64,000 nucleotides of DNA from contig CM097884.1 in assembly GCA_044892505.1 (NCBI GenBank), positions 17,856,001 to 17,920,000 on the forward strand. The letters are read 5' to 3'. Under the pieces are notes generated by a model, which ran no database searches, was not told the origin of the DNA, and worked only from the letters and a program-made list of their open reading frames with translations. Below are positions 1 through 33,600 of this stretch, piece after piece (positions within the stretch are counted from its first letter, which is position 1; every line of letters begins with the position of its first letter). The position numbers and the translations under genes were made by a program. This stretch comes from Schmidtea nova (Eukaryota).

Positions 1-2143
1 AGAACTAATTACAAGAAACCTCTTTTTATGACATCGGCTAATCAACAATCTTTTGATTCTGCTACTATTTGTTATCTTTGTAAGAAAACTTTAGTACAAC
101 CAGTCAGAGACCATGATCATTACACTGGTGAATTTTTGGGAGCTGCTTGTAATTCTTGTAATCAATCCCGTCGTTTATACAAGTTTTTACCCGTTATTTT
201 TCATAATTTAAAGGGTTATGACTTGCACCATATTCTTAAATATGGTTTGGCTAATTTTTCAACTTGGAAAATTTCTTGCATTCCTACAACTAGTGAAAAA
301 TTCTTGACATTGTCTGCAAGGGTTGGTGATTTAACAATTAAATTCATCGATTCTTGTCAGTTTGTAAATTCTAGTTTAAATGACGCTGTTAAGACTCTTA
401 CTTGTTTGCCTTTGACTAGATCTGAATTCACCGGGACTATTGTTGACTGTAAGGGTATTTTTCCTTATGATTTTGCAACATCTTTAGAAATTCTTAACAA
501 CACTTATGAGTTGCCACCAATCTGGAAAGGTGTTAAACAAGATGAATATGACAAGGCATTGGTGATTTGGAGGGAATCCCAGTGTCAAACTCTTTGTGAC
601 TATATGATGGTCTACCTTAAACTGGATGTTTTTCTTCTTGCTGATTTCTTTCAACAGTTTAGGGCTAAATCTATAGCTCACAATAGACTTGAGCCTTTGA
701 ATTTCTTGGGGATTCCAGGTATGTCGTGGGCTTCTGCGCTTATTACCTTGGAAGAACCTATTGAGTTGCTCCAGGATATGGAGATTTATAATTTTTTCGA
801 AGGGGGGATCCGTGGTGGATTGACATTTGTCAACAAGCATCACGTAGTATCCTCCGAAACGACTGAACTTTTATATATTGACATAAATAATTTATACGGG
901 TGGGCTCTAAGTCAAAAATTACCTTATGGTGAATTTAGTTGGATCACAGATCAAAATAAATTTAATTAATTAATTAAATTAATGGATGCTGATTTGGCTA
1001 TTTTGACTTATGGCGTGACTTTTGAAGTGGATCTTGAAATCCCTTCAGAAATTCACGATAAATTAAATGATTTTCCGGTTGCAGCAGAGAAAATGTGTGC
1101 TCCCGGTTCAAAAGTTGAGAAGTTAATGCTTACGCATTATCCAAAGTTCAACTATGTTGTTCATTGGAGGCTTCTCAAGCTTTTTGTTTCTTTGGGTGTT
1201 AAAATAACACGAGTTCATCGGGCTGTTCAGTACAAACAGAAACCCATCTTTAAAAAATACATAGATACGAACACTGAACTTAGGGCAGCTTCTTCTACGG
1301 CTTTAGATAAAAACTATTACAAACTCTTGAATAATAGTCTTTATGGGAAAACGGTTGAAAATCTTAAAAAACGACTTAATTTACGACTTTGTAATTCAGC
1401 ATCAAAACTGATTACATATACTTCAAAACCTACCTTTAAAAAAAACTTATAGAATTGATGATGACCTAGTTTCTGTCTTGCTTAATAAGGACTCTGTGTG
1501 TTTAGATAGACCCAGCTACATTGGTCAAACTGTACTGGATTTATCTAAACTTAGGATGTACCAGCTGCAGTATGAAGAGTTACAAAAATATCGTAACGAA
1601 TTCAACTGCGAAATTAACATCGTTGCTGGTGACACCGATTCATTTTTTCTTGAGATTAGAAATTGTAAGCTTGATATTCTTTTACCGGCCATGATAAGAG
1701 ATAACTTACTTGACACTTCTAATTATGATCCGAATCACCCATTATACAGTAGGAACCTAGATTCCGTCATTGGTAAATTCAAAGACGAGAATAAAGGATT
1801 CAAGTATGATGAGTGGGTATTCCTTAGGCCAAAGTGTTACAGTCTTTTAGGTGATGAAGAGTGCATTAAGGCTAAGGGTATAACATTGAAGGATACTAAA
1901 CTGAATCATCAGTCGTATCTGGATTGTTATAATAATAATTCAATAGTTTCTGTTGATCAGTCGAGAATAGTTAGTAAGAATCATCAACTCTTTACTAATA
2001 AATCTTCTAAGATTGCCTTGACTAATCTTGACGACAAAAGACTTTGGGTGGGAAAAAATGTTAGTCTGGCTTATGGACATTATAAGGGAATTGATGTGGT
2101 TATGGGTGTGCGTGAAGATGCTGCTGATGAACAATTTGCCTGA
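1..2143 (+). pseudogene. polB: Protein-primed family B DNA polymerase (Polinton/adintovirus-like, copy A), open beyond the window start; one in-frame stop (967-969) and one +1 frameshift (A-run at about 1438-1445)
   Basis: EndoVII-like insert CYLC..RDHDHYTG..CNSCN; ExoII FHNLKGYD; ExoIII YLKLDV; motif A YIDINNLYG; motif B KLLNNSLYGK; motif C AGDTDS. ORFs 28-969 and 982-1452 share a frame; 1478-2143 is shifted. Confidence 0.93.
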
Positions 2144-2560
2144 AGATTTATTTAAATAAAGTTTTATTTTTAAATACTTTGTGTTTTTTGTTGTTTTTCT
2201 AGTTAATATTACTTTTTATTGTTGAACGTTAAATTCTGGTTATTTATATGTAAAAGATCTTGAATTTTAACCATTTTTAACCAAGTAAGGTTTTTTCATG
2301 TTAAATTTACCATAGAAGACCAATTTTTCATGTTTTTACTTTTTGACCCTTTTTTGTTCGCCATTGAATTCCCAGTAGATTGGTATAAAAATTATTTAAA
2401 TCCGAGCATTTTTGAAATTTTTGGGTAAAAATTTGAAAAAATTAATTTATTTTATATTTTTTGTAAAAATTATGAAAAAATAAATAAAAATTATTAAATT
2501 ACAGTATTATATCATCAATTGCGTAAGGGATTTCGTGTTATGTAAGAATTTATGTTTTTG

Positions 2561-2905
2561 TAAATAACTACGTAATAATTACGTAATAATTACGTAATAA
2601 TTATGTAATAATTGCATAATAATGACGTAATAATTACGTAATAGTTGCGTAACAATTATTTAATAATGACGTAATAGTTACGTAATAATGACGTAATAAT
2701 TACATAATAATGACGTGATAATTACGTAACAGTTGCGTAACAATTACGTAATAATGACGTAATAGTTACGTAATAATGCTGTAATAATTACGTAATAATT
2801 ACGTAACGATTACGTAACAGTTACGTAATAATATAAAAATACGTAATTTGGGGGTGGGTGGGGGGTGGGGGGGTTGGCAACTGTATAATTATTACGTAAT
2901 ATATA
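2561..2905. repeat. Subterminal tandem array of an 11-bp unit (ACGTAATAATT-like) with TTACGTAA/TGACGTAA cores
   Basis: About 24 imperfect 11-bp units read directly in 2561-2831, plus scattered copies to about 2900. Confidence 0.9.
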
Positions 2906-2953
2906 CAGTTTAGGGATAAATGGCTTGGCCCCGTGTCCTCACTATCCCCTACT
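2850..2953 (+). mobile_element. Right terminus of element A (G-tract, then ...CTATCCCCTACT; reads AGTAGG from the end)
   Basis: The same terminal sequence recurs at 19720-19772, and the two copies diverge immediately after CCCCTACT. 5'-AG/AGT termini are typical of Polintons. Confidence 0.75.
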
Positions 2954-4332
2954 ATTGATATAAATAATTTATATGGGTGGGCCTTAAGCCAACCCCTGCC
3001 TTGTGGTAATTTTGAGTGGGTCACTGATGACCAATTATTAAATAATATCGTTTGTGAGTGCACATCGGAAAATCTCGATACACTTCATTATGGTTACACC
3101 ATAGAAGTGGATTTGGAAATTCCGGCATCGATTCACGACAAACTGGATGATCTTCCAGTTGCCGCTGAAAAGATGTGTGCACCGGGATCCAAGGTTGAGA
3201 AGCTGTTGCTAACGCATCTTCCAAAGAAGAATTATGTTCTTCATTGGCGGCTTCTGCAACTATTTATTAAAATTGGTGTGAAGGTAACGCACATACATCG
3301 CGCTATTAAATTTACACAAAATAAAATCTTTTTTAATTACATAAAAATTAACACAGACTTACGAGCTGCATCAACAAATAAGCTCGATAAGAATTTTTAT
3401 AAATTATTAAATAATAGTCTCTACGGCAAAACCGTAGAGAACTTAAAAAAACGAATAAATTTACGATTGTGTAACTCGGCACAAAAACTGCTGACTTACA
3501 CGTCGAAAGCTAATTTTAAAAAAACTACCAAAATCGACAATGATCTCATCTCCGTATTGCTTCAGAAGGAATCAGTATGTTTGGATAGACCCAGCTACAT
3601 CGGACAAACCGTACTGGATTTATCCAAACTTCGTATGTACCAGCTGCAGTATGAAGAGTTACAAAAATATCGTAACGACTTCAACTGCGAAATTAACATC
3701 GTTGCTGATACTGATTCCTTCTTCTTGGAAATCAAAAATCTGCCTTTAAACACTCTTTTGACCGCCATGATTCGAGATAGGCTTTTGGATACTTCAAATT
3801 ACGACACTCATCATGCATTGTATAGTAGGACCCTTGATTCTGTGATTGGTAAATTTAAGGATGAGAATAAGGGTCTACTGTATGATGAGTGGGTTTTCTT
3901 AAGACCTAAGTGCTATAGTCTTATGGGAGACGAGGCCTGCATGAAAGCCAAGGGTATCTGTTTGAAAGATGCAGGTCTCACACACCAGTCTTACCTTGAC
4001 TGTTTTTTAAATGATAAAATATTTAATGTCCCCCAGTTCCGAATTACGAGCAAAAACCACCAACTTTTCAGTATTAAAAGCAATAAGAGAGCCTTATCTT
4101 GTAGGGATGATAAAAGGAACTGGGTGGATAAAAATAAAAGTTTGGCGTATGGTCATTATATGGGGGGTGACACCACTATATTTGTAGGTGATCGAGATGG
4201 AACAAACCAACAACAACAACAACAACAACAGATTCAACAACAGCTTCAACAACAACAACAACAACAAGGTCCCTCAGATGACCCATATGATTTTTATGAC
4301 CCGACGGCACGGGATTATTTTGGATAATGCGA

Positions 4333-4369
<37 letters not shown>

Positions 4370-4430
4370 CGACGGTGACAATGACAATCAGGATAATGAA
4401 AAAACAAAAAAAAAACAAAAAAAAATATAA
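2954..4430 (+). pseudogene. polB: 3' half of a second, related pPolB (copy B), starting abruptly in motif A; poly-Q then (after a probable +1 slip at about 4318-4321) poly-D C-terminal tail
   Basis: IDINNLYGWAL begins exactly after the element A terminus; KLLNNSLYGK; VADTDS (Gly of GDTDS missing). Colinear with copy A. Confidence 0.9.
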
Positions 4431-4516
4431 AAGATATAGAAAAAAATCAAAAAAAAAAGATTAAACCGAAAGATTAAACCGAAAGATTAAACCGAAAGAT
4501 ATGAGAACGTACAATC

Positions 4517-4532
4517 GGCCCTCTTCAGGGCC
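4517..4532 (+). terminator. Histone-mRNA-type 3' stem-loop 1 (GGCCCT-CTTC-AGGGCC, followed by ACAA)
   Basis: 6-bp stem and 4-nt loop fitting GGYYYU-YYUN-ARRRCC; about 86 nt after the acidic-tail stop. Function inferred. Confidence 0.6.
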
Positions 4533-4722
4533 ACAATTTATGATTGTATAAAAATATTAAATAATAAGTTTTAGAAAATTTAGCTGACCGAAATCAGAAA
4601 TGAAACAAATAATTACCGAAACCGAAAAAATAAAAAAATTAACAGATTACAGAAAACGAAAAGAAAAAACAGAAATCAAAAAGATCAAACAGAAAGCAGA
4701 TTCAAATTGGGAAAGTAATAAC

Positions 4723-4738
4723 GGTCCTCTTTAGGGCC
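4723..4738 (+). terminator. Histone-mRNA-type 3' stem-loop 2 (GGTCCT-CTTT-AGGGCC)
   Basis: Same 6+4+6 geometry with one G-U pair; shares the downstream motif TGATTGTATA with stem-loop 1. Confidence 0.55.
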
Positions 4739-4876
4739 TATACATTTTGATTGTATAATAAATTGCGCAATCAATTAAAACTATGGAATTATTTTTTAGT
4801 TTTTTTTTTGTTTAAAATTGTTCTTAGTTATTATTATTTTTTTTTTATAAGTTATTTTTATAAGTTATTTTCATTA

Positions 4877-5730: not shown

Positions 5731-5990
5731 ACGTACACAACGATATATTTATAAATTGCATGTGTATTGCAATGTCTTTGTTCATGTTGCACGCGTGTTG
5801 CAAAGTCCTTGCACGTGTGTTGCAATGTCTTTGTTAACTTGCACGCATGTTGCAAAGTCTTTGTTTAGTTTGAAAGATAATAATAATAATTAAATAAAAA
5901 ACATTAGTAGCAGAACATTTAGTATCAGAACCCTGGAAGCAGAACATTGCGATCAGAACCCTGGAAGCAGAACCTCTTCTGTGATGGTTT
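5731..5990. repeat. Short imperfect tandem repeats (TTGCAAAGTCTTTGTT-like; about 27-bp TCAGAACCCTGGAAGCAGAAC)
   Basis: Read directly; the first motif recurs at about 7180-7245. Confidence 0.7.
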
Positions 5991-6212
5991 TGAAGTGCAA
6001 AAGCTTCATACTTGACAAATAATAATTAATTAAAAATGCACACATATAAAAATTTCTTTGTTTAGTTTGCACACCTGTTGTAAATATTTTTGATGACTCT
6101 AATTTTGTCTTATAAAAAAATTTGACTAAAAATAATTTGTCTTAAAAAAATTCGTCTTAAAAAATTTGTCTTAAAAAAATTTGTAAAAAAAAAATTTTTC
6201 AAAAAAAAAAAA

Positions 6213-6353
6213 TTTGGCCTGAAAAAAATAAATTTTTGAAAAAAAAATTTGGCGCAAAAAAAATTTTTGAAAAAAAAATTTGGCGCGAAAAAAATTTTGA
6301 AAAAAAAATTTGGCGCGAAAAAAAAATTTTGAAAAAAAAAATTTGGCGCGAAA
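6213..6353. promoter_or_regulatory. Tandem array of E2F-consensus sites (TTTGGCGCGAAA) in A/T-tract spacers
   Basis: 3 perfect TTTGGCGCGAAA, 1 TTTGGCGCAAAA and 1 degenerate copy, period about 30-32 bp. TTTSSCGC is the E2F consensus; binding is not shown. Confidence 0.55.
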
Positions 6354-6374
6354 AAAAATTTTGAAAAAAAAAAT

Positions 6375-6544
6375 TATGACTCATCGATGACTCATCAAAA
6401 AAAAAGTATGACTCATCGATGCCTCATCGATGACTCATCAAAAAAAATTTCTACCCCCCGGGGGGAGGGGGGTCTTTCTTCTTTTTTTCCCGCCCACGCA
6501 TGAGTCATAATGTCTTTGTTCCCGGCTCCACACATCTACCTACT
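6375..6544 (+). mobile_element. Putative right terminus of element B: ATGACTCAT cluster, G6AG6 tract, ...TCTTTGTTCCCGGCTCC..CCTACT
   Basis: Same layout as 2850-2953; the last 35 or so bases are similar to 8085-8118. Confidence 0.6.
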
Positions 6545-6997
6545 GTTCATAAAATGCAAAATCTTTTCAGTAAATTGAGTCCAATTAAAATGAAACCAGT
6601 TAGGAACGATAACAAATCAACTCAAAAAAAATTTGATTTACGACCGGTTCAGATGTTTCACGATTACCAAATGTTTTTCTTGGTAAACTAAATCTCTTTC
6701 AAGGTCCCAAATCCGGTAAAGCTTTCGACTTCGCAATATTCCAACTTGATTGGTCAGATTTATAAAGAAGATGTTGTTGCAATCAATAAAGTGTTGACGA
6801 AAATCAACAAGAAATTATCTTGCAATGAAACTATATTCATCAACAACAGGAACACCGAATTTCATGATGCATTTCAATCAGTTGAATATACGGATAATGA
6901 AAATTGGTTTATTGATATATCCATCCAAGGATATAAAATCGATCCAAAAGAATCAATGTCTCCAATTTGGAAGATAAAAAGCGCAAGAATTGCATAG
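6545..6997 (+). pseudogene. Fragment of an unknown small element ORF (in-frame stop at 6689-6691), possibly an OB-fold ssDNA-binding protein
   Basis: ORFs 6500-6691 and 6746-6997 are in the same frame. C-terminal DISIQGYKIDPKESMSPIWKIKSARI loosely recalls T7 gp2.5-like viral SSB ends. Confidence 0.3.
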
Positions 6998-7256: not shown

Positions 7257-7529
7257 GATGAGTCATACTGATGAGTCATACCAATGAATCATACCGATGA
7301 GTCATACTGATGCGTCATATTGATGAGTCATACTGATGAGTCATACTGATGAATCATACTGATGCGTCATATTGATGAGTCATACTGATGAGTCATATTG
7401 ATGAGTCATACTGATGCGTCATATTGATGAGTCATACTGATGAGTCATGTAGATGAGTCATGTAGATGAGTCATGTAGATGAGTCATACCAATGAGTCAT
7501 CCAGATAAATCATACCGATGAGTCATTAG
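7257..7529. repeat. Tandem array of a 13-bp unit GATGAGTCATACT (AP-1/TRE core TGAGTCA)
   Basis: 21 units counted, 15 with a perfect TGAGTCA. Confidence 0.92.
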
Positions 7530-10272: not shown

Positions 10273-13200
10273 TTAATTTGGAGAGGGTGTAACTTTGTTG
10301 GTAAATTGATAATAATTCAATTCACATGTTTTTGTTTCTTCATAATGTAGATACATCATTCCGTCTTCATCTGGTGGTTGTCTTTTTGATTTATTTAAAT
10401 CATGTTTGAATGTTTTGGGTTGTGCTTCTTCATCAGTAGGTTTCTAACACCTTTTATAAAATCATGACTCCAAGGTTTGGTTGTTATTGACTCTACCTCT
10501 TCTTTACGGTATAATTTGAAAAATTCTTTTGAATATAAAATGTCAGAGTTGTATCCTTTAAAAGTTTTCTTTTCAATTAATATTCCATTATTTAAAACTA
10601 TATTATATTTAATTTTTGGTGCTTGAAATAATCCATATACAATTCCACCATCTCCATAATCATTTTTTCCTTGACCTAAATTACTTCCTACATGTCCAGC
10701 TTTATCTAGTTCATTATAATATATTTTTGAAATATATGTTGAATCTGTGTCTATAATATTCAATTGGTTTCTTGTAAGCATCTATCTCTAGTAAAAAATT
10801 ATTCATAATTCTTCTTGAATGTCCTAATATAAAAGATCCTAAATGTATTAGCACTTCCGAAATTTGTTTTTGGATCTACAACATCAATTTTCTCAGTTTC
10901 AATTTTTTTTCAACAATCCATTTCTTGTTTCCAATTTCAAATCTTGATAAAATCATGTCATCATAATTATCTCGTAATGTTCGTTCACTCCAAATATGCA
11001 TTTCTGTATCACCATATTTTTGAACTGTTTTGCCATATAATGAATTCATCAACAACTTCATTAATTCATCACCAACTGGATCTATATTATTTTTATCACC
11101 TTGATGTTTAATACCATCATTTTCTTGATATGGTTTTCCTTTATATTTTAATCTTATGTTAAATAATAAATTAATATATGAAGTAAACGGAGAAACTTTA
11201 TAATCTTTTTGATATATTATTCCTTCAGATATTCTTGTAATTTTTCCGACTGTTCTAACAATTTCATGGATGTCTACACTGTTTAACCAATCCTCTATAT
11301 AACCATTTCTAAATTTATTAACTTTACGTTTATCAACCCCTTCTTTAATTGGAACATGTTGTAAAAATTCTCTTGTGAATAATAATATCCAACTTTAAAG
11401 AATCCTGCTCTTGGTCTAAAGTTTTGAGTATTAAATAGATTTAATATTTCTATTTCTTCAGATTGTTTAAAAACTCGAGCCATTTCTACTTTTGGATATT
11501 CAGAATTTTCATCTTCCATTGCTGACGGATATAAACTTGTTGCATCAAAAGCCATTAAAAATCTTCATCAAACCATTCTAAATTCATTACTTTATTTCTT
11601 GATTCTCAAAACATGTTTGTTGTGTTATTCTTGGTTATTTTTTCTGGATTCTTTTCACACCATTCAAAAATACTAGCAAAATTACCAAATAAACTATAAT
11701 TATCTCTTTCAATAATTTTTTTTGTCTTGCTTAGAATATTCTTTTGTTTTATATTTTTGTAATAATTTTAATCCAGAATTTTGTTCTAATATTTCTAATG
11801 CTGGATATACAATTAAATAAAATAATTCTTGATTAAATATGAAATATCAACATAATTTGGGCTTTGCCTATCTTTATGTGGTAAATCTAAATATTCGTTT
11901 AATATTGTCTCAATGTTTTCCATTTTTGGGATTCAAATGTATTAATGTTTGCAGAAACTCGACCACCTTTTACACTTTTTCTTATAAACCATCGAACATT
12001 AGGATCAACATATGTTGATATTTTTTCTCGTTCATCAATTGGTTTTTTTAATTCTTGTTCATTATGATGTTTTACCCAACCTTTTAATGCTAATGATGGT
12101 GATGACATGCATGAAGACATGTTTTGTCCAACCTATTCTTCCATTATTGACGAATATTGTATAATAATTATTGCTAGTGATATAGCATCTAATTTTAAAT
12201 ATGGTTCCCATTGTGATTTGAAATCCAAATAATTTTCTAAAGTTATATTATCATGTTCTAAATTTGATTTACTAAATTCTATTGGAAGTTTAAATGCTTT
12301 ACATATATTTTCCAAACTATTTTTTATATGATTAAGAGAACATTTAAATATTATCTTTTGAAAAAATCTATTACCTATTGGATTTTTAATGTTTGGATGT
12401 TTTTCTTTAAATTTATCCTTTATTATCTTTTGATTATATTCTGATGTGTAAATATTTTTAAATTGAAGGTTAATTATACCTTGTGTTGTTTTTAAAATTT
12501 TATATGGAACAATTCCATGTTCTTGCAAACTAAATAATTATCAAATTTACTTCCATTATGTGCAATTAAATAAGCATTTGTTTGATTAGGAATATTTCCT
12601 ATGTATTTAAACATTTCAATAATTCAATCAACTACTATAAATATTTTAGCTTTTTCTTTTAATATTTCTTGTTGTATTTTGTCTTGTTTTAATTCTAATT
12701 TTTCACCCAATACTTTTTTAACATCTTTTAAAGATATTAATCCGGCCGCCCATTGTTTAAAATAACAATCTGTTGTATTTGGTGAAGCTTCTAAATCCCA
12801 AGCAAACGTTTCATCTTCAGATATTTTTTATACGAGTTTTGTATTCTGAAACTTGTACAATATTTTCAGAATTACAATCAACATGTAGTTTAATATAATT
12901 TTTATTTACCTCTTTTATTCCTTCTTTTTATAATATTTATCAATTAAGCAGAAATGATTTTCATACAAGTATAAAACCATGTTGAATTTACATGATTGAA
13001 CATTAGTTTTGGGATATAAATGTCTATCTTTTTCACTATAATATAAAATATTAATATTTTGACTTTTACAAAAACTAGGTATTATAGCTAAAGTCATAAT
13101 TCCAGAACGATAATCCCTTTCATTTTTATACAAATATTCTTCGTATTTTTCCACCATTATTATTGAAATACATGATATTATATTTCCAATATGACAATTT

Positions 13201-14053
13201 TTTCCACTTTAACTTTTTTTTCAAAATTAGCTTCTAATTCTCCTCTTCCACATTCTCAATATGAATTTGAAATCAAACACCATTTCTTTTGTTTAAATAA
13301 AATACTCCAATTATCAGGGTTTTCATGATTGGTAAAATAACCATCTAAATCACAATATTCTATATGCAACTCTTGTGTTATAAATTTAATTATTTGTTTT
13401 GGTGATTTTTTCCATCTCTCTAGCAATAATTTCTATTACACATTTTATAAAACAATTTCCATCTGATGGAATATAACAATATTCTCCTTTGTATTCATTA
13501 ATTTTGTATTTAAAATTTACTCCTTTTCCAAAATCACTTCTTGTTAATCTTTTAAAATGATCTTTAACAAATCTTTTCACTCCAGTAAATTTATATTCCT
13601 CCATGTCTGATGTTTCATTAAATGATTCTCTATAACCTTGTAACATTTTTATAGTTATTAAATTTAAATCTATTACTTTAATTGTTGTTTTTGTTCTACT
13701 ATTCCATAATTCATCAAAGACACTTACCATATATCCTCATTGAATTCTTTTATCAACATCATCAAGAACTTTGGAAAAATCTTCATCATAATATCTTATT
13801 ATTTTAATTAGGTTTGGGCTGTTTGTTTTCTCTACTTGTGTTTTTGTCTTTTTCTTTTCTTTTCTATTTCTTTTTTTCTTTCTTCTGTCTTAGTTATTAA
13901 TTCTTTAAATATTTTTGCCATTAATTTTTCTTGTAAGAGTTGTTTATTTTCATCTTTTAAACGTTTAAGTTCATCTTGTAATCGTTTATTTTCATCTAGA
14001 ATTTTTTTCCATTGCAAGGAACTCCTTAATTTAGAAATCGGTTTTGCGGCCAT
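10273..14053 (-). pseudogene. polB: Second-lineage protein-primed PolB polyprotein (element D) with an N-terminal OTU-like protease; many frameshifts
   Basis: Motifs in order on the minus strand: CYIPSDGNCF and LYENHFCL (OTU Cys/His), FAWDLEA (ExoI), IAHNGSKFD (ExoII), YLKLDAI (ExoIII), AFDATSLYP (A), KLLMNSLYGK (B), IDTDS (C). Confidence 0.88.
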
Positions 14054-15989: not shown

Positions 15990-18900
15990 GATATTTTAAT
16001 CAATAAATTAAATGATGTTATTAATGAGATGGGGTTTGTCAAAATACAATTTTATGTTGACGTAGAGTTTGAAAAAGATGGTGAATTTCAATCATTTATC
16101 ATTTTAAACTCTGCAAGACCAATTAGTGATTCCTTTTTTAGATGAAGGTATCACCCTTTTAAATGAAGTAATTGGGTTATCAACAAACTCAACGAAATCC
16201 ATTTTGTTGTAATTAAATTTGCCCAAATTAGCCGATTAATTGGCAGAGGTCATATAAATACTCCTCGATCTTTAGATGCGAAACATTGTACTGTAAATGT
16301 AATTAATTCTGATGATTTCTGTTTCATTTATAGCATTTTGGCTATTTTGAAATATGATGAGGTAGATAATAATATAAATCGAGCAAATAATTATAATATT
16401 AATGATCTTGACTTTGACCATTCTGAAATGCCCATGAGACTTTGTAATATTCCAAAGTTTGAGGCTAAAAACACTGGACTTTCTATTGTTGTTTTATCTT
16501 ATGATGAAGATGCTCTTCTTGATACTTTGGCAAACCTTGAAGTTTTTAAATACCCTTGTCTTGACATTATCCACAGGTCGAAAGTTATTTGGTGGTACTC
16601 CTATTAACTTGATTTTGTTGGAAAGTGGTGATGCATATCATTATTTTGCAGTCACCGATCTTGATAGGCTTTTGAATCTTGATGATCGTACAATTTCCAA
16701 TACTCGCATTCAAAGTATATGGTGTCATCGATGCTTGAATGGATTTCGAAAACAGGAAGCATTCGATTGTCATCAACAGTTGTGTGCTAAAAATCAATTA
16801 GGCACAACTCTTTATACTCTGCCTAGAAATAAAAATTTGAAATTTAGTAATTGGGGCAAAACAATTACTCTACCTTTTGTTGTTTACGCCGATTTTGAAG
16901 CTATCTTATCTACTGATGATAAGTACTTTCGAAGACATGTCCCAATCTCTGCCGATCTTTTACTTGTAAATAATTTCACTGGCGAAAAAAGTTACAAGAG
17001 TTTCTTAGGTCTTGATTGCGTGACTAATTTTTTTACTGAAATTAGTTACTTGTCAGAATTTATTGTTTATCCCTTTTATAAAAATAATTTCAAGAAACCT
17101 TTTTTTTATGACAGCGGCTAATCAACAATCTTTTGCTTCTGCTACTATTTTTTATCTTTGTAAGAATACTTTAGTAAAACCAGTCAGAGACCATGATCAC
17201 TACACTGGAGACTTTTTGGGTGCAACATGTAATTCTTGTATCAAATCCCGTCGGTTATACAAAATTTTACCCGTTATTTTCTATAATTTTAAGGGATATG
17301 ACTTGTACCATATCTGTTAAATATGGATTGGCTAATTTTAAAAATGGGAAAATTTGTTTTATTACAACAACTAGTGAAAAATTCTTAACTTTATCTGTAA
17401 GAGTCGGTGATTTAACCATTAAATTCATCGATTCTTGTCAGTTTATTAATTCTAGCTTAAATGAAGTTGTTAAAACACTTACTTGTTTGCTTTTGACTAG
17501 ATATGAATTCTCAGGGAGTATTGTTGATTGTAAAGGTATTTTTTCCTTATAATTTTTCATCATCTTTAGAAATTCTTAACAACACTTATGAGTTACCACC
17601 AATTTGGGAAGGTGTTACCCAAACCGAATATGACAAGGTATTGGTGATTTGGAGGGAATCAAAGTGTGAAACTGTGTGACTATATGATGGTCTACCTTAA
17701 ACTGGATGTTTTTCTTCTTGCTGATCTCTTTCAACAGTTTAGGGCAAAATCTATAGCTCACAATTGACTTGAGCCTTTGAATTTTTTGTGGATTCCAGGT
17801 ATGTCGTGGGCTTCTGCGCTTATTACCTCGGATGAACCTATTGAGTTGCTCCAGGATATGGAGATTTATAATTTTTTCGAAGGGGGGATCCGTGGTGATT
17901 TTACATTTGTCAACAAGCACCATCTAGTATCCTCCGAAATGACTGAACTTTTATATATTGACGTAAATAATTTATATGGGTGTTCTTTAGGCCAAAAAGT
18001 ACCTTATGGTGAGTTTAATTGGATCACAGATCAAACTAAATTTAATAAATAAATTAAATTAATGGATGCTGATTTAGCTATTTTAACTTATGGCGTGACT
18101 TTTGAAGTGGATCTTGAAATTCCTTCAGAAATACATGATAAATTAAATGATTTCCCGGTTGCAGCAGAGAAAATGTGTGCTCCGGGTTCAAAGGTTGAGA
18201 AGTTAATGCTTACGCATTATCCAAAATTCAACTATGTTGTTCATTGGAGGCTTCTTAAGCTTTTTATTTCTTTGGGTGTCAAAATAACTAGAGTTCATCG
18301 GGCTGTTCAGTATAAACAGAAACCCATTTTAAAAAATTATATTGACACAAACACTAGACTTATGACAGCTTCTTCTACGGCTTAGTTAAGAACTATAACA
18401 AAATCTTGAATAAAAGTTTTTATAGGAAAACTGTTGAAAATCTTAAGAAAAGACTATTTTACGACTATATAATTCAGCATCAAAACTGATTACATATACT
18501 TCAAAACCTACTTTTCGAAAAACTTATAGGATTGATGATGACCTAATTTCTATCTTGTTTAATAAGGACTCTGTGTGTTTAGATAGACCCAGCTACATTG
18601 GGCTAGGTGTGTCTGGGTTTGTGTTTCTTAGGCCAAAGTGTTACAATCTTTAGGTGATAAAGAGTGCATTAGGGCTAAGGTTATAACATTGAATGATACT
18701 GAATTGAATCATCAGTCGTACCTGGATTGTTATAATGATAATTAAATAGTTTCTGTTGATCAGTCGAGAATAGTTAGTGAGAATCATCAACTCTTTACTA
18801 CTAAATCTTCTAAGATCGCTTTGGCTAATCTTAATGACAAAAGACTTTGGGTGGGAAAAAATGTTAGTCTGGTCTATGGATATTATAATGGAATTGATAT

Positions 18901-21521: not shown

Positions 21522-21554
21522 GGCTACCACGCCGAATAAATTGAACCGATTCAC

Positions 21555-22714
21555 GTGGTGACAAGAAATCAGCATAGAAAGATGATTATGGAATCTTTGC
21601 CTAAACAGGCAAAAGACATTTTGAATTTTAATGTCAGAAGATTCGACGGCCGAAGCACGGTAGAAGCAGAGAAATGGCTCAAGGATATTGAATATTGGAC
21701 GCTACTAAATGATCTAGATTTAGTAAGTATTTTTGATTTATTATTGTCTGAAGAGGTATCTATTCTCTGGAAAGAATTTAAGGACATTGCCACAACGAAT
21801 GAAAAAGCTCGTGAATGGTTTAATGAAACATTTACCAAAAAGAAGTCCATTATGGATAAGATTTGTGACTTATCAGCAATAAAACAAATTAACGATGAAA
21901 GATTTATCACAATCGAGATACGAGTAAAGAAACTTGTTGACGAAGTTTTTGACTGTGGAATTTCAAAAGAAAATATTGTTGAACTGATTTTGTGCAGCAG
22001 AGTTCGGAACGACCGTTTGAAAGAAAATATTTCAACGAAGGCTAATATCTCGAGAGAAGAAATTAGAAATTTAGCAAAAGTATATGAGGCACGAGAAGGC
22101 TACGATACAAAAGAACGATTTGAAGAAGTTCAGGCAGTAGTGAAATCAACCTATGCAAACGTTGCTCAAGATAAACAGAAGCAATGGACTAAAAAACATC
22201 TTTAAATAATAGAATGTATTCGAGTCGTCAACCAGAAATAAGTTATCAAAATAGAAATGAAAGAAGCGAAAGACAAATTGATAGAGTGAAACCCGTGGTA
22301 GAACAATATAATGAGAGGACAACTATGGACCGTAGACCACCACCGTTAGTTTCAATGAAACATATCGCAAGGAAAGTTTATAATAGATGTTGTGGTCTAC
22401 CTGAACCAGCAGAAGAAAGGTTAAGATCTGGTAAATGCTTTTGTTGTGGACAAAGTGACCATATGCGATTTGAGTGTCCTTTGAAGGACAAATGCTTAAT
22501 ATGCGGTAAAGAAGGTCATTCATTTAGAAATTGCAATTTGTTAGTGAAATCAAGAAGTAATACACAAAGACTGGAACGAAGAGTGTACTGTATACACGAA
22601 GAAGACGATGACAGATCAGATGAATTGATAGCCCCAGTCATACATAATGTTGAGACTCAAAAAAATCAAGAAGTCCCTGTTGTCTACATTTCGTCAGTAG
22701 GGTCGAGACAGTAG
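21555..22714 (+). pseudogene. gag: Gag with two CCHC zinc knuckles, frameshifted at about 22200
   Basis: CFCCGQSDHMRFEC and CLICGKEGHSFRNC. Confidence 0.88.
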
Positions 22715-25700
22715 ATGAGTATAAAAAACGTAATGTTGTAAAGAAGGATGTGATTTTTAAGAAGGATGATGACAGAAAGTGGAGTACGATTGAAATAAAT
22801 GAATTTTATGTAGAGATGCTATGGAATTCAGGAGCTTCAATCAGTGTGATGAGTGAGAAATGTTGGAGATTGATTGGCAGTCCAACATTGATGGAAAGCA
22901 GAATACGGTTGAGTGGAGTATTTTCAAAAGAAGACGAGAAACCTCTCGGAAGCGTTAAAATCGTTGCAAAATGGAACAACAAATGTCGAGAATTGAATGT
23001 TATTATTGTTAGAAATATTCATCCAGATTTTATAGGAGGTGTAGACACCATGAGAATATTTGGCATGAAGCTTAAAGAAGTCAATAATATAGATGCATCG
23101 TTAGTTACCCAGAGATTTACAGATTCTGATCGGTTAAAGTTTGCGTTATCGATGCTCAAGTTGGACAAGAATTCGAAGTTGGGTACTTTAATATCTAAGT
23201 TTAGCAACATTTTTATGGCATCCAGATTTGACTTAGGTCATACAAAAAAATAACACATGAAATAACGACTTCAGGTCCTCCAATTTTACAAAATCCAAGA
23301 AGACATTCCATGCATTTAGAAGTCAAAATTGAAGAGTTAATACATAATTTATTAGAAGCTGGAGTTGTGAGAAAATGTCAGAGTCCGTGGAACACACCGC
23401 TAGTAATAGTCAGAAAACCGGATGGCTCTATAAGAATGTGTCTAGATTTTAGGCTATTAAATTCAGTTACAGAAAAGTTTTCATTCCCGATGCCAGACAT
23501 GCAATTATTATTGGATTGTCTCGGTAAGTCAAAGATATTTTCATCAATTGATTTAGGTCAAGCCTATTATCAGGTAGAGTTGCATGAAAATTCCCAAACC
23601 AAGACGGCATTTAGTACAAAAGAAGGACAATTCTGTTTTAACAGGTTACCATTTGGTTTATCAACAGCTCATGTGACTTTTCAGAAACTGATGCATAAGA
23701 TATTGGAAGGATTAATTTTCAAAGGAGTGGTTGTCTATCTTGATGACATTTTAATATATGCTGAAAATCAGAAAACGCATGATAAACTTCTACTTAAAGT
23801 ATTCACACGCATTAGAGATGCCGGTTTGAAAGTCAATCCCGAGAAATGCGCACTCCATAAAAGCATATTAAATTTCATTGGTCATACAGTGAGTGAAAAG
23901 GGAATTCAAACAAACAAAAGAAAGATTTCAGAAATTGAAAATGCAACTGAACCGAAGAGTGTTACAGAATTGAGGTCATTCTTAGGTTTAACTAATTATT
24001 ATCGGCGGTTTATCAAAAATTATTCAATGATAGCAGCACCTTTGAATGCCGCAACAACAGGAAATGATAAAATTATTGTTTGGACTGAAGAATGTAGAAA
24101 AAGTTTTATCAATTTAAAGAAACTCTTGTGTGAAGCACCAATATTAGAATTTCCAAGGGCAGATCGACTATTTATTCTTGATACGGATGCTAGTTTTGGG
24201 GCCATAGGTGCAGTTTTATCTCAGATTAAGGAAGATGGCACTGAGGGAGCGATAGCGTATGGTTCAAGACATTTGACATCACATGAAATGGGATATTGTG
24301 TTACTAGAAAAGAGTTGTTGGCACTTCACGAGTTTATTGTACATTTCAAGCAATATTTATATGGAAAAAAATTTGTAGCCAGAACGGATCACAAGGCATT
24401 GACGTTTATGAACACGAAAAAGAAACCAATAAACCCGCAGTTTCAGACATGGATGGCAAATTTATCTGAATATGATTTTGAATTAAAATATAGGAAGGGA
24501 GAAGAACATGGAAATGCAGATGGTATGTCTCGTTTAAATAATATCATATGCGCTCATTGTCAGATGAAACACAAGGATGCCAAAGAGACAAAATGTAGAA
24601 CTCGTTACATTAATAGTCTACAAGGAAGTTCAAACATTATGAAAATTATTAAACAGCAGCAAAACGAAGAAAACATTATTTCAGAAATCATATCACATTT
24701 TAATGGAAATGAGGATCATATATCTTATGAAACAATCAGTAGCAGTATTTTCAAGTATCTAAAAATATTACAGATACAAGATGACGTATTGATGATTAAT
24801 GCAGACGGAAAACTTGCAGTTGTAGTACCTGACAAGTACGTAAAAACATTGGTAAATTATTTTGATATTGAACTGTGTCATCTGGGTATCAAGAAAACCT
24901 TATTTTATTTAAAAGACTTTTTCTTTTGGCCATCAATGAATCAGAGTATAACTGAATGTATTAATAAATGCAACATTTGTGCTAGTAGAAAGATTGATCA
25001 AGGAAGAACAAAAGAAATTTTATTTCCAATAACAGGAGAGCGGTTTTTAAAACAGATAGTAGTGGATATTGCATATATGGAGACAAAAGCAAGTAAGAAA
25101 TATATGATAGTGATAATAGATCGTTTTAGTAAATTGGTCAGCAACAAAAAACGCAGGATGAATCAACAATTTTGAATGTCACTTTAAATAATTGGATATA
25201 TCGTTTTGGTAGACCAGAAAGCATTCTTACAGATAGAGGAAGAATTTTTAAAGGATCAATGTTTCGTGATTGGATGGAGAAATTTGGTATAAAACAAGAA
25301 TTCAGTTCACCATATCAACATCGATCAAATGGTTTAGCAGAACGAATCATAAGAACAGTTCGGGACATGATGGCAACATCATTGACAGAGATTAGAACAG
25401 AGAATAATTGGTGCAGATTGTTACCAAAGATTGAATTTAGTTTGAATGCTACAACACAAAACTCAACAAATTTCTCACCTTTTGAAATTGTACATAGTCG
25501 GAAGATTAATTTATATTCTAGATTAGGACATAAAAAAGCAAAGACGAAATTGTGGATAAAACAAAAACTAATCTAGAGAAAGCAGCTACAACAATGCAAA
25601 ATAGAGATTAAGAACACCGGGGTACTCGAGTATTCACAGTCGGAGAGAAAGTATTAGTTCGCTTGGAACCACATAGACGAAAGAAGGAGGGAATCTAATA

Positions 25701-27695: not shown

Positions 27696-30003
27696 CCCTA
27701 AAGCTCTTAACATGAGACTGAGGGTCTCTTTTTTTCAATTCATATAAATTTCTGCTTTTAAATCTGTTTTTACACTTGATACTTTTATCAATTCTTAAGT
27801 AACCGCCAATTTTAAAAGAAAACCCGAAAAAATATTTATAGCAGGATAATCCCGTTACTTATTTGAGTTTAATTTTTATTACGTAAATTCTTACACAGAG
27901 ACTACAAATCTCTTTGCTTATTTTGTGTTGCATTATTACAGAAAACGTATTTATTTTGCATTTGAAATAAATATTATGTGCAGTGTGTGATAAAAAAATT
28001 TAAAAAATTAGTATAATAAATAAAAAATTAGTATTCTATCTATTACGTTTGTTTTTCTGTTATCATAGTGGTAAGTGAATATATTTTTATATCATATTTG
28101 TTTTATTACCATATATTTATATTATAGAAAATGTCAAATAAACCGTTATCAACGGCTGAAATGATAAAAACTTTAGAAGAAAGTGAAGAAGAAGAAAGTA
28201 TTGCTGAAGAGCCATATTTGAATTTTCAAAGTGATTCCGAAGATGAAATAATTTCCGAAGCTTCTGAAGTTGAGGATAAAATAGAGGGTATAGATAATGA
28301 AGCAGAAATACCAGTTCCTGCAGTAAATCTTGTTAGACGAGATGGTACAATATGGAATAGGGTACCATCTGCTCAATCAAGAACAGGACGTCACAATATA
28401 GTAAGAGAAGCTGTAGACAAGATAACACTGCCACCCGGATATGAAGTTGTCGATTTTCTTGATTGTTTTAAATTATTTATAAATAATTCAATTCAAAATT
28501 ATTATGAAGCATACAAACGAGGAAGGTGAAAATAAAAAATGGCAGAACACGGGTGAAGATGAGCTATATGCATTTTTTGGACTTTTGATTACAGCAAGTC
28601 ATTTAAAATGGAATGCAAAAAATTATAGAAGCTTCTGGGACTCGTTCTATGGATCTCCAATTTTTAAGGCCACAATTGGACTTACACGCCTTGAGAATAT
28701 ATTAAGATTCTTACGTTTTGTTGACAAAAATACAAGAAGTGAAAGGCGTAAGGCAGATAAGCTGTGTCCCATTCGTGATGTATGGGAAATGATAAACAAA
28801 AGTCTAGGAAAGTGTTACATGTCGTGAGAAAATTTGACAGTAGATGAGCAATTGACACCTTGCAGATCTCGATGTTCATTGTTTCAGTATATGCATAGTA
28901 AGCCATTTAAGTATGGCATAAAAATTTGATGTATTTGTGATTCTAAAACTGCACATCCACTTATGGACATACCATACACGAGCAAAGAAGGTAATACTAG
29001 AGCTATTGGTTTAGCGCGAAATGTTGTTGAACGCTTATGTACACCATTTTTTGGAACCAATAGAAATATAACTATGGATAACTACTTTACCAGTATTTTA
29101 CTTTACCAACTAGTAGAAAGCTTATTATCGAATGGTTTGACGTTAGTGGGAACTTCGAGAAAAAATAAAAGTTGCATTCCTATCGATTTGTTACCAAATA
29201 AAATCAGAGAAGCAAGATCAACATTATTTGATTTCAAAAAAAATTACCATAGCATCGCATGCCCCTAAGCCCAAGAAAGCAGTTAATCTTTTATCTATAA
29301 TGTTGAGAAACCAATATCATCCATAAACTTATATTACAATGAAATTAAGTCTGGCGTTGACACTTTAGATCAAATGGTTTACGAATATATGATAAAAAGA
29401 CAAACCGTTGGACTTTTGCCTTTGTTATGAATCTTATTGATGTAGTCAACAACGCAGTGTACATTATTTGGTGCAAAAAATTTCCTTATTGGAATTCAAA
29501 CAAATCAAACAAAAGAAATTTATTTCTCAGAGGTCTTGGCGAGGAACTTGTTGCTCCACTGTTAAAAAAACTTCAAATCGTGTCACGTATAGCAGCATCA
29601 AAAGTATTATAGCATGTACAAACTATAGACGGAAAAGTTGGCGGATCCAGTTTTTCAAATATATCTTCACCAACAAAACGTAGGAGAGTCCTTGAGGAAG
29701 ATGTAAATATACCAAATAAGCGTCGCAGACGCCATGTGCCTATACTCGAAAGCAAAGATGCAAAAAGAATCTATATAATGACCATTCCACATCGATCCGT
29801 GAATGTTTTACATGGATGAATAAATGAATTTTATTTTAAAAACTACACATAAAAATCACAAAATATATTTTTATAATTTGATAAATAAATTTGTCAAAAA
29901 AATTTAATTAATTATTTTTTTTCATCAAAAACTAATATTTACATACACAGACTGCAAAGCTCTTCTTAAGAAGTTATGTTAAAAAATGTTAAGAGGGTTA
30001 GGG
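27696..30003 (+). mobile_element. Full-length defective piggyBac transposon
   Basis: TTAA TSDs (27692-27695, 30004-30007); TIR CCCTAANNCTCTTAACAT. Transposase fragments 28131 to about 29790 contain VDEQL, SKPFKYGIK, MDNYFTSI and SGVDTLDQM. Confidence 0.93.
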
Positions 30004-30675: not shown

Positions 30676-33600
30676 TCAATTTGAATCACAATTGTTTCTA
30701 GAATTATTATAATCATTAGGACTGTTTTCATTCATGTTTTCTGGGAAAATAATAGAATTAGGTTCAAAAACTTGTTGATTATACTGCTTATGATCTCCTG
30801 ACAGTAATAATGACAAAGCAGAACTGTTTTCTTTTTTCAATTTTAAAAATAAATTATGACCATCTTTATCTGCTGACAAATTCGAAGCATTTATTATGAC
30901 ACGAGAATTATCGAGATGTGTTGGATTCAATTTTGATTTCGAAATGTTAAAATTATTAATATCCGATGTGCTAGTTTGCGTATTTCCAGAAATATTTATA
31001 GAATAGGATTTTTCTATCGTTGATATTTGACTATTTTCTTCAGTTGCAGAATCAAAAATATCTTCTTTCATAGCATTATCGGAAGAATAAACATCCATAA
31101 ATTTACTATTCATATCGGGATTTATTATGTGCAGGGTAGGTTTTGATTTTTTTGAATAAATTTCTTTCATTCTATTTATTTCATCAACTAACACTTTATT
31201 TTGCTGTTCCAGGTTTGCAACTCTGTTTTCCAAACACTTAACATATTCTTTCTTTTTCCGCCGACATTCTCTAGCTGCCTCTCTAGAAAATGTATTAAGA
31301 ATTTCAATAAATTTCTGTGTGATCATTTAAATTATTATTATTAATTGATACAGTGGAATAATTACAAATTTATTTCAAACATCGCAATATATCCTGGATT
31401 TGCTTATAATGACTAACTAGTTTACACTCTTTTTTTAACTCTTTCTTTTAACTTCCAATTTCTGTTTGTTTTCTTGTCAAACTTTGGATCGATTTTTAAC
31501 CCACTTCCCGATATCCAATCGATCTGAAAATTTGCGAGCACACTCGTGGTGGCCCACAAATTATTCCATTGAAAAATTGAAAAATTTTGAAACAATGTGA
31601 TTTTTCAATTTACTTTTGCCAAGAAACTACCGAACAATGAAACGACAATAAAATTAACCGAGAACATGAGAAAAAGAAAGAGTTACATTAAAAACTTGTT
31701 TTTATGGGTTCCTTTTTTCAATGAATAAAAACATTTGAAATGTTTTACCCACTTGTTCATTTATTTTGTTATTTTTTTTAATTTCTAATGTTTTAAAATA
31801 TATATTATATGAAATTTTGTTATTTTAAATAATTTTATGTAATTTAAGATGCAGTTTTAAAATTCAAAATATATTTTAGAATTTTGACTTGGATTTTTTA
31901 TTTAAAATACTGAATACTGCAATTCCTATATCGTATGTACAAAATCAAAGGCTCGTATTTTTCTGGTCAGAATTTTAATATGGTTATGGTCAGAATTTTA
32001 ATATGGTTATGGTTAGAATTTATATTACATTGGTCAGAATTTATATTAAATGGTCAGAATTTATATTAAATGGTCAGAATTTAAATTGGATTGGTCAGAA
32101 ATTATATTAATCAGTATATTAATCAGTTGACTTGGATTTTTTATTTAAAATACTGAATACTGCAATTCCTATATCGTATGTACAAAATCAAAGGCTCGTA
32201 TTTTTCTGGTCAGAATTTTAATATGGTTATGGTCAGAATTTATATTACATTGGTCAGAATTTATATTAAATGGTCAGAATTTATATTAATCAGTATATTA
32301 ATCAGTTGACTTGGATTTTTTATTTAAATACTGAATACTGCAATTCCTATAGCGTACGTACAAAATCAAAGGCTCGTATTTTTCTGGTCAGAATTTTAAT
32401 ATGGTTATGGTCAGAATTTATATTACATTGGTCAGAATTTATATTAAATGGTCAGAATTTATATTAATCAGTATATTAATCAGTTGACTTGGATTTTTTA
32501 TTTAAAATACTGAATACTGCAATTCCTATAGCGTACGTACAAAATCAAAGGCTCGTATTTTTCTGGTCAGAATTTTAATATGGTTATGGTCAGAATTTTA
32601 ATATGGTTATGGTTAGAATTTATATTACATTGGTCAGAATTTATATTAAATGGTCAGAATTTATATTAAATGGTCAGAATTTAAATTGGATTGGTCAGAA
32701 ATTATATTAATCAGTATATTAATCAGTTGACTTGGATTTTTTATTTAAAATACTGAATACTGCAATTCCTATATCGTATGTACAAAATCAAAGGCTCGTA
32801 TTTTTCTGGTCAGAATTTTAATATGGTTATGGTCAGAATTTATATTACATTGGTCAGAATTTATATTAAATGGTCAGAATTTATATTAATCAGTATATTA
32901 ATCAGTTGACTTGGATTTTTTATTTAAATACTGAATACTGCAATTCCTATAGCGTACGTACAAAATCAAAGGCTCGTATTTTTCTGGTCAGAATTTTAAT
33001 ATGGTTATGGTCAGAATTTATATTACATTGGTCAGAATTTATATTAAATGGTCAGAATTTATATTAATCAGTATATTAATCAGTTGACTTGGATTTTTTA
33101 TTTAAAATACTGAATACTGCAATTCCTATAGCGTACGTACAAAATCAAAGGCTCGTATTTTTCTGGTCAGAATTTTAATATGGTTATGGTCAGAATTTTA
33201 ATATGGTTATGGTTAGAATTTATATTACATTGGTCAGAATTTATATTAAATGGTCAGAATTTATATTAAATGGTCAGAATTTAAATTGGATTGGTCAGAA
33301 ATTATATTAATCAGTATATTAATCAGTTGACTTGGATTTTTTATTTAAAATACTGAATACTGCAATTCCTATATCGTATGTACAAAATCAAAGGCTCGTA
33401 TTTTTCTGGTCAGAATTTTAATATGGTTATGGTCAGAATTTATATTACATTGGTCAGAATTTATATTAAATGGTCAGAATTTATATTAATCAGTATATTA
33501 ATCAGTTGACTTGGATTTTTTATTTAAATACTGAATACTGCAATTCCTATAGCGTACGTACAAAATCAAAGGCTCGTATTTTTCTGGTCAGAATTTTAAT

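What the first reader, a model, noticed from the sequence alone, without database searches (positions are those of the whole stretch)
4517..4760. Two replication-dependent-histone-type 3' stem-loops downstream of a Polinton-like polB, with no histone gene
Seen: GGCCCT-CTTC-AGGGCC-ACAA (4517-4532) and GGTCCT-CTTT-AGGGCC (4723-4738) on the polB sense strand. Each is followed 8-9 nt later by the same TGATTGTATA, and no histone ORF lies upstream. Known: a 6-bp stem with a 4-nt loop of this consensus is the SLBP-bound histone mRNA end; C at loop position 1 is the C. elegans variant; the U7-pairing HDE lies just downstream. Inference: the element may use host SLBP/histone processing to make S-phase-restricted, non-polyadenylated polymerase mRNA. 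I do not know of this being described for Polintons or adintoviruses.
Basis: partly seen in the sequence, partly recalled or inferred. Interest (0 to 1): 0.85.

Follow-up and report, generated by a model that had tools for sequence, protein, structure and literature searches.

The report
Polinton polymerase with histone mRNA end
Thousands of copies of a virus-like jumping element in this animal genome carry, right behind their DNA polymerase gene, the same hairpin and downstream signal that ends the host's own histone genes, which likely lets the element make its polymerase message the way cells make histone messages during DNA replication.

Summary
Observation confirmed, interpretation largely supported by genomics, RNA untested. 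Both hairpins belong to a Polinton/Maverick family with thousands of copies (2,580 flank-anchored first hairpins). They sit only behind pPolB, on its sense strand, outside the terminal repeat. The host's replication-dependent histone genes end in the same three-part signal (TGAGAA-type box, GG(C/T)CCT-CTT(T/C)-AGG(G/A)CC, TGATTGT 7-9 nt downstream); histone variants lack it. The host has SLBP and an Lsm10-like gene; U7 was not found. Both 16-mers are identical across subfamilies whose silent polB sites differ at 42-60% and whose spacers are near shuffle level. A second lineage with another gene order keeps 3-4 signals behind polB. Most hairpin-less lineages instead have AATAAA plus a U-rich tract. 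Best reading: the element borrowed histone-type 3' processing for its polymerase mRNA, probably tying it to S phase (0.65). Against: no RNA data, 21 of 30 sampled polB ends lack the signal, covariation not significant, first downstream element predicted to be masked. Ten paper searches found no description. The scan earlier noted non-histone genes and a gene-less repeat with such ends in other genomes (unchecked notes), not a Polinton.

The parts
2954..4327 (+). 3' part of the pPolB gene of the hairpin-bearing Polinton (family A); in this copy the gene is split by a nested Polinton
   Evidence: PF03175 E 2.6e-11; 5' part lies upstream of the window, junctions carry the duplicated 6-mer ATTGAT
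4328..4501 (+). A-rich, U-poor 3' UTR spacer without a U-rich tract
   Evidence: sequence; T content 11-19% in 9 hairpin-bearing copies against 36-64% in 19 hairpin-less ones
4502..4509 (+). upstream box TGAGAACG, shared with host histone 3' ends at about the same distance from the stem
4517..4532 (+). histone-type stem-loop 1, followed by ACA
   Evidence: RF00032 32.2 bits; flank-only score from host histone ends is the best of 126,070 window positions
4541..4547 (+). downstream element 1 (TGATTGT), 8 nt after the stem; predicted to pair with 4510-4516
   Evidence: same motif and spacing as 12 of 17 host histone ends; fold
4708..4715 (+). upstream box of the second signal (TGGGAAAG)
4723..4738 (+). 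histone-type stem-loop 2 with a U-G pair at position 3; lacks the 3' ACA
   Evidence: RF00032 13.3 bits; identical 16-mer in host H3 genes
4748..4754 (+). downstream element 2 (TGATTGT), 9 nt after the stem
4757..4762 (+). AATAAA followed by U-rich sequence: possible fallback poly(A) site, present in this subfamily only
   Evidence: sequence
5756..6544 (.). right terminal inverted repeat of the family A Polinton, ending in CT; 6-bp target-site duplication GTTCAT at 6545-6550
   Evidence: inverted match of 805 bp at 96% to the left end upstream of the window; junctions
1..2953 (+). right end of a nested, hairpin-less Polinton (family B): broken polB 1-2143, AATAAA 2155-2160 with U-rich tract, terminal repeat; internal control, not part of the signal

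Best explanation
A high-copy Polinton family carries two copies of the host's own histone 3'-end signal directly behind its DNA polymerase gene, and likely uses them to have that mRNA cut by the histone pathway instead of polyadenylated. Shown: identity of the signal with host replication-dependent histone ends, its place behind polB only, its conservation between diverged lineages, and the lack of a normal AATAAA/U-rich site in front of it. Inferred: SLBP binds stem-loop 1, opens the pairing that hides the downstream element, a U7-type snRNP pairs with UGAUUGU and the RNA is cut a few bases after the stem; signal 2 and the AATAAA behind it are backups. Further inferred: the mRNA then accumulates and is translated mainly in S-phase cells, so that polymerase is made when dNTPs and replicating chromatin are available, in the dividing stem and germ cells through which a new copy is inherited.
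For: Host match: 17 of 30 histone-fold loci end in the same box + hairpin + TGATTGT-type motif; the 13 without are variant-type or broken. Flanks alone rank signal 1 first of 126,070 window positions. Selection: both 16-mers identical in three subfamilies with 42-60% divergence at fourfold sites and spacers near shuffle level; 87 of the first 100 flank-anchored sites have the exact 16-mer. RNA-type variation: pair 3 is C-G, U-G or U-A in 25 of 26 element hairpins, as in host histones. Gene-specific: in one copy examined, four other genes have AATAAA + T-rich tract and none a hairpin. Follows polB, not the terminus, in a second lineage with other gene order. Mutually exclusive with AATAAA/U-rich sites in most lineages. 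Host machinery: SLBP domain E 1.3e-18, Lsm10-like best PDB hit E 2.9e-05. Stem-loop histone mRNAs are poly(A)-poor in a planarian (PMC10954484, section read).
Against: No transcript evidence of any kind. 21 of 30 polB ends sampled without regard to the hairpin lack it, including close sister subfamilies, so it is dispensable. U7 snRNA not identified; Lsm11 not identified among 20 LSM matches (only one was checked against PDB). Covariation rests on one pair; 35 of 500 shuffles reach it. Downstream element 1 is predicted to be paired with the 5' flank and reads TGATCGT in 8 of 25 copies, a form not seen in the 17 host ends. Signal 2 lacks the host's 3' ACA and its flanks score poorly at fixed spacing (-18.7); an AATAAA follows it in this subfamily. 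Poly(A)-less stem-loop mRNAs are PIWI targets in planarian stem cells (PMC10954484), a cost to the element. No related locus from another organism showed the signal (0 of 5 metagenome loci with long downstream sequence).
Confidence: 0.65

Rival explanations
1. The hairpins bind SLBP inside a longer, polyadenylated RNA (like the long H2A.X form) and act on translation, stability or as an SLBP decoy; the RNA is not mainly cut there.
For: Downstream element 1 is predicted to be masked; AATAAA + U-rich tract follows signal 2 in the main subfamily; 2-4 tandem copies suit a binding platform; SLBP binds the poly(A) H2AFX isoform (PMC4604434 passages).
Against: The downstream motif and its 7-9 nt spacing are kept in 24 of 25 first and 25 of 25 second signals, which binding alone would not need; two other subfamilies lack the AATAAA behind signal 2.
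Confidence: 0.17
2. The signal is used for cutting, but its purpose is to stop read-through into the terminal repeat or the convergent gene (avoiding double-stranded RNA and silencing), not cell-cycle timing.
For: polB is the last gene before the terminal repeat in family A and faces a convergent gene in the second lineage, where 3-4 signals are stacked.
Against: Hairpin-less lineages end polB with an ordinary poly(A) site in the same position, so termination does not need this signal.
Confidence: 0.08
3. A DNA-level site (palindromic protein-binding, replication or packaging signal) that only resembles the histone hairpin.
For: The 16-mer is a near-palindrome close to the element end; the termini hold many palindromic boxes.
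Against: One-sided flanks equal to host histone ends; T-G at pair 3 is tolerated; present at one end only and outside the terminal repeat; internal, behind polB, in the second lineage.
Confidence: 0.05
4. A passively captured piece of a histone gene, spread by the element's success, without function.
For: Signal 2 with its upstream box is nearly the same as one host H3 end; the genome holds another dispersed histone-derived repeat; 3' modules may be swapped between subfamilies.
Against: No change in 32 hairpin bases between subfamilies whose silent sites differ at 42-60% and whose spacers are near random likeness; kept in lineages with polB only 66-71% identical.
Confidence: 0.05

Closest known systems
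Metazoan replication-dependent histone mRNA 3' end (stem-loop RF00032 + histone downstream element; SLBP, U7 snRNP)
   Same: 6-bp stem, 4-nt loop, invariant G-C and U-A pairs, conserved downstream motif at fixed distance; sequence equal to the host's own histone ends.
   Different: Sits behind a 4-kb viral-type polymerase ORF, 110-190 nt after the stop instead of 27-44 nt, in 2-4 tandem copies, at thousands of dispersed loci. Histone mRNAs are described as the only known non-polyadenylated cellular mRNAs (PMC4604434, passages).
Polinton/Maverick elements (adintovirus-type, PF03175 PolB; PMC8502044 passages)
   Same: pPolB, rve integrase, A32-like ATPase, adenovirus-type protease, DJR-like capsid, long terminal inverted repeats, AG...CT ends, 6-bp target duplication.
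   Different: Histone-type signal in place of a poly(A) site behind polB; not found described. Also encodes a TBP-like protein.
H2A.X (H2AFX) dual 3' end
   Same: Stem-loop and downstream element followed by a poly(A) site.
   Different: A host histone gene with one hairpin; here the later AATAAA is present in one subfamily only.

Membership tests
Histone-type 3' end signal | Stem-loop of RF00032 type | tested here: met
   32.2 bits, E 2e-07, under the gathering score 34 but within the host histone range 25.7-34.4; second hairpin 13.3 bits
Histone-type 3' end signal | Same hairpin as the host's replication-dependent histone genes, absent from variants | tested here: met
   17 of 30 histone-fold loci carry it; variant-type genes do not
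Histone-type 3' end signal | Downstream element shared with host histone genes at fixed distance | tested here: met
   TGATTGT or TGATCGT at +7 to +9 in 49 of 50 element signals; TGATTGT-type at +7/+8 in 17 of 17 host ends
Histone-type 3' end signal | Complementarity to the host U7 snRNA 5' end | tested here: inconclusive
   U7 not found by Rfam or patterns
Histone-type 3' end signal | Host has SLBP and U7-specific Sm proteins | tested here: inconclusive
   SLBP domain met, Lsm10-like met, Lsm11 not identified
Histone-type 3' end signal | Compensatory base changes in the stem | tested here: inconclusive
   97.4% of cells paired, one pair with C-G/U-G/U-A; 35 of 500 shuffles as high
Histone-type 3' end signal | Poly(A)-minus RNA end just after the stem, SLBP-bound, S-phase regulated | not testable with these tools
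   no RNA holder listed; contigs only
Replication-dependent histone gene | Encodes a histone | tested here: not met
   upstream ORF is pPolB; no histone ORF among the element's ORFs scanned
Polinton/Maverick | pPolB and retrovirus-like integrase | tested here: met
   PF03175, PF02945; PF00665
Polinton/Maverick | Terminal inverted repeats, AG...CT ends, 6-bp target duplication | tested here: met
   4 of 4 family A copies and the nested element checked
Polinton/Maverick | Packaging ATPase, protease, capsid proteins | tested here: met
   Pox_A32, Peptidase_C5; 405-aa ORF nearest to PF21738 DJR-like clusters at 0.98, recognition value below the tool's mark, so a lead; minor capsid not tested

The most novel reading that the evidence does not exclude
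An animal DNA virus-like element makes its replication polymerase from a non-polyadenylated, SLBP/U7-processed mRNA, hijacking the histone pathway to switch itself on only in S-phase stem and germ cells; the pathway is then not reserved for histones, and Polinton lineages switch between poly(A) and histone-type ends as alternative strategies.
Probability: 0.5. Interest if true: 0.93.

Novelty: new variant of a known kind. Interest (0 to 1): 0.85.

Why it matters
Histone mRNAs are held to be the only cellular mRNAs that end in this stem-loop. A mobile, virus-like element that uses the same signal for its DNA polymerase would be a new way of timing viral or transposon replication to the host cell cycle. 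It would also explain why such transcripts are missed in poly(A) libraries, and it gives a natural experiment: sister lineages in one genome with either a poly(A) site or the histone signal behind the same gene. The shared TGATTGT motif also predicts the 5' end of this host's unidentified U7 snRNA.

Tried and rejected
Rfam at gathering score: 0 hits in the window. The loose hairpin pattern has a high reversed-pattern control (7,333 against 4,808), so that count alone proves little; the flank-anchored pattern has 2,580 against 0. U7: Rfam search rang nowhere; patterns gave 105 against 68 control and 9 against 4; of 39 loci folded none had a convincing U7-like hairpin. Expression: no RNA holder listed; four runs of unknown kind, contigs only, cannot show ends or level. 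Other organisms: 10 metagenome loci, none with an RF00032 hit, three too short downstream; viral contigs gave no relative, no match to the element's signal and one chance match inside a phage ORF for the vertebrate-type pattern. A pattern meant to count the second lineage was badly built and its 0 means nothing. Host naming by sequence failed. Ideas rejected: Helitron or MITE end hairpin (context is a Polinton with its own ends); a histone gene carried by the element (the scattered H2B-like fragments are a separate repeat without the signal, 0 of 16 loci). Trees are quick trees on 130-175 columns with 13 and 16 rows dropped for stops, duplication or short matches; they need 3 and 5 changes but do not rule out one origin. 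One paper on the evolution of histone 3' processing was not held. bioRxiv supplements were not seen; repeat annotations there could bear on novelty.

Full report
Observation. Both hairpins and the repeated TGATTGTATA are at the stated places. They are the only two matches of the relaxed pattern in the window (chance mean 0.19; 2 of 100 shuffles reach 2). Rfam RF00032 gives 32.2 and 13.3 bits, both under the gathering score of 34; four of five host histone ends tested score 25.7-34.4 and one was not listed.

What the element is. The window lies in a 1.25-Gb animal genome with three large chromosomes. That size fits the larger Schmidtea planarians (10.64898/2025.12.11.693146, passages; the chromosome number is recalled); sequence look-ups did not name the host, so 'planarian' is an inference. 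The hairpin pair recurs genome-wide: 7,333 matches to a loose pattern (reversed control 4,808) and 2,580 to a pattern anchored on the flanks of hairpin 1 (control 0). All 15 first-hairpin loci printed have a polB 3' end upstream. Longer stretches show 17-18 kb Polintons with terminal inverted repeats, ATPase, integrase, protease, a DJR-like capsid lead, a TBP-like gene and pPolB as last gene, AG...CT ends and 6-bp target duplications in 4 of 4 copies checked. 9 of 16 copies examined have an unbroken frame of 1,300 codons or more, so the family is young. The window's copy is dead: another, hairpin-less Polinton is inserted in its polB (duplicated ATTGAT). The hairpins lie outside the terminal repeat and at one end only.

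Match to the host's histone genes. Of 30 histone-fold loci, 17 have the hairpin 27-44 nt after the stop; the 13 without are H3.3-like, H2A.Z-like, other variants or broken (labels from recalled diagnostic residues). The 17 distinct host ends share a TGAGAA-type box about 12-15 nt upstream, GG(C/T)CCT-C(T/A)T(T/C)-AGG(G/A)C(C/T), ACA, and TGATTGT (12), TGGTTGT (3) or a one-letter variant (2) 7-8 nt after the stem. The element has all three parts. With the stem left out, a matrix from the host flanks ranks signal 1 first of 126,070 window positions; signal 2 scores poorly at fixed spacing because its spacer is 9 nt and it lacks ACA. The genome has one SLBP-domain match and two similar Lsm10-like genes, one of which was checked and hits human Lsm10 best. 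U7 was not found. In S. mediterranea stem-loop histone mRNAs are under-represented in oligo-dT libraries (PMC10954484, passages and section 28). Host histone genes here are partly dispersed over two chromosomes, so processing does not seem to need one cluster (inference).

Selection. Among 33 copies (most fetched because they had a hairpin), three subfamilies differ at 42-60% of fourfold-degenerate polB sites, yet the commonest 16-mer at each position is the same in all three; the third subfamily is one copy. Spacers between subfamilies align little better than shuffles. In the first 100 flank-anchored sites 87 have the exact 16-mer. Across 26 chosen element hairpins 97.4% of cells pair; pair 3 takes C-G, U-G and U-A like the host genes, but 35 of 500 shuffles reach that covariation.

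Distribution. A polB C-terminal motif has 14,217 matches (control 63). Of the first 30, 9 carry the pair and 21 none. In 28 of them with a measurable UTR, the 9 hairpin-bearing ones have 11-19% T in the first 100 nt and no T-rich tract behind any AATAAA; 16 of the 19 hairpin-less ones have AATAAA followed by 53-72% T. In one copy, four other genes have AATAAA with a T-rich tract and only polB has the hairpins. A search for the GGACC stem variant found, among 30 of 42 loci read, 10 host histone genes and otherwise mostly polB ends, including older subfamilies. One decayed lineage with polB 68-71% identical and a different gene order has 3-4 signals behind polB, facing a convergent gene in the middle of the element; another at 66% has one. 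Quick trees need 3-5 gains or losses and do not exclude one origin. No metagenome relative showed the signal.

Mechanism. Most likely the polB pre-mRNA is bound by SLBP at stem-loop 1 and cut by a U7-type complex, with signal 2 and a following AATAAA as backups (inferred). The 5' flank of stem 1 is predicted to pair with its downstream element (-17.7 kcal/mol, z -4.1), a feature of three subfamilies but not of four host ends checked; SLBP-induced opening of a hidden downstream element is described for mouse H4-12 (PMC1635294, abstract), but it could equally weaken cutting there. S-phase coupling follows from established SLBP biology and is untested here. No RNA run was listed and the four contig sets say nothing on ends. 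Rivals: internal SLBP-binding element or decoy in a poly(A) RNA; cutting only to stop read-through; DNA site; passive relic.

Comparison and novelty. It works like a replication-dependent histone 3' end but is not a histone gene; the carrier is a regular Polinton (PMC8502044, passages). Histone mRNAs are called the only known non-polyadenylated cellular mRNAs, and SLBP CLIP found no non-histone target in HeLa cells (PMC4604434, passages). A 2026 preprint found no SLBP or processing factors in large DNA viruses and its passages do not mention such signals on viral genes (10.64898/2026.10.14.759114, passages). Ten searches (listings only unless named above) gave no description of a Polinton, virus or transposon gene with this signal; subscription papers and preprint supplements were not covered. 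Earlier scan notes report non-histone genes and a gene-less repeat with histone-type ends in other genomes (unchecked) and nothing for Polintons.

Verdict. Real, conserved, host-matched signal on a viral-type polymerase gene; new variant of known parts; interest 0.85, held below the top for lack of RNA evidence.

Noticed in passing
L084:6935-7396 (-), and related copies L077, L251, L257: These Polinton families encode a 154-aa TBP-like protein (PF00352 E 8.5e-14; best PDB hits TATA-binding proteins), divergently transcribed from the ATPase.
   Followed up: partly
G000, e.g. L292-L296, L298, L300-L307: A dispersed repeat of about 320 bp made of an H2B coding fragment (about residues 33-100) with shared ends, 78-86% alike between copies, without stem-loop; a histone-derived SINE- or MITE-like family.
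   Followed up: partly
host histone loci L031-L060: All 17 host histone ends carry an extra conserved box (TGAGAATG-like) 12-15 nt upstream of the stem, and a downstream element TGATTGT that is not purine-rich; both could be lineage-specific processing features.
   Followed up: partly
window 2579-2899, 6377-6507, 7259-7525, 4762-4771: Terminal regions of the Polintons hold arrays of bZIP-type boxes (TTACGTAA, TGA(C/G)TCA, TGACGTAA) and one ATTGCGCAAT just after signal 2 (factor names recalled).
   Followed up: no
window 30676-31326 (-): Intronless 216-aa bZIP ORF (PF00170 E 1.3e-13); host or element origin not checked.
   Followed up: no
G000: About 14,200 polB C-terminal motifs, in many families and often nested: an extreme Polinton load.
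   Followed up: partly
G000, control: The reversed hairpin pattern (CCRRGAHTTYTCYYGG) has 4,808 matches, suggesting another high-copy palindromic repeat.
   Followed up: no
window 10395-13736 (-), 16167-18385 (+), 21540-25576 (+), 28128-29612 (+), 50983-51633 (+): Further decayed elements: a second type of PF03175 polB, another Polinton polB, a Ty3/Gypsy element, a piggyBac-like fragment (label by eye) and a DDE transposase.
   Followed up: no
L289, L290: Two near-identical Lsm10-like genes on different chromosomes.
   Followed up: partly
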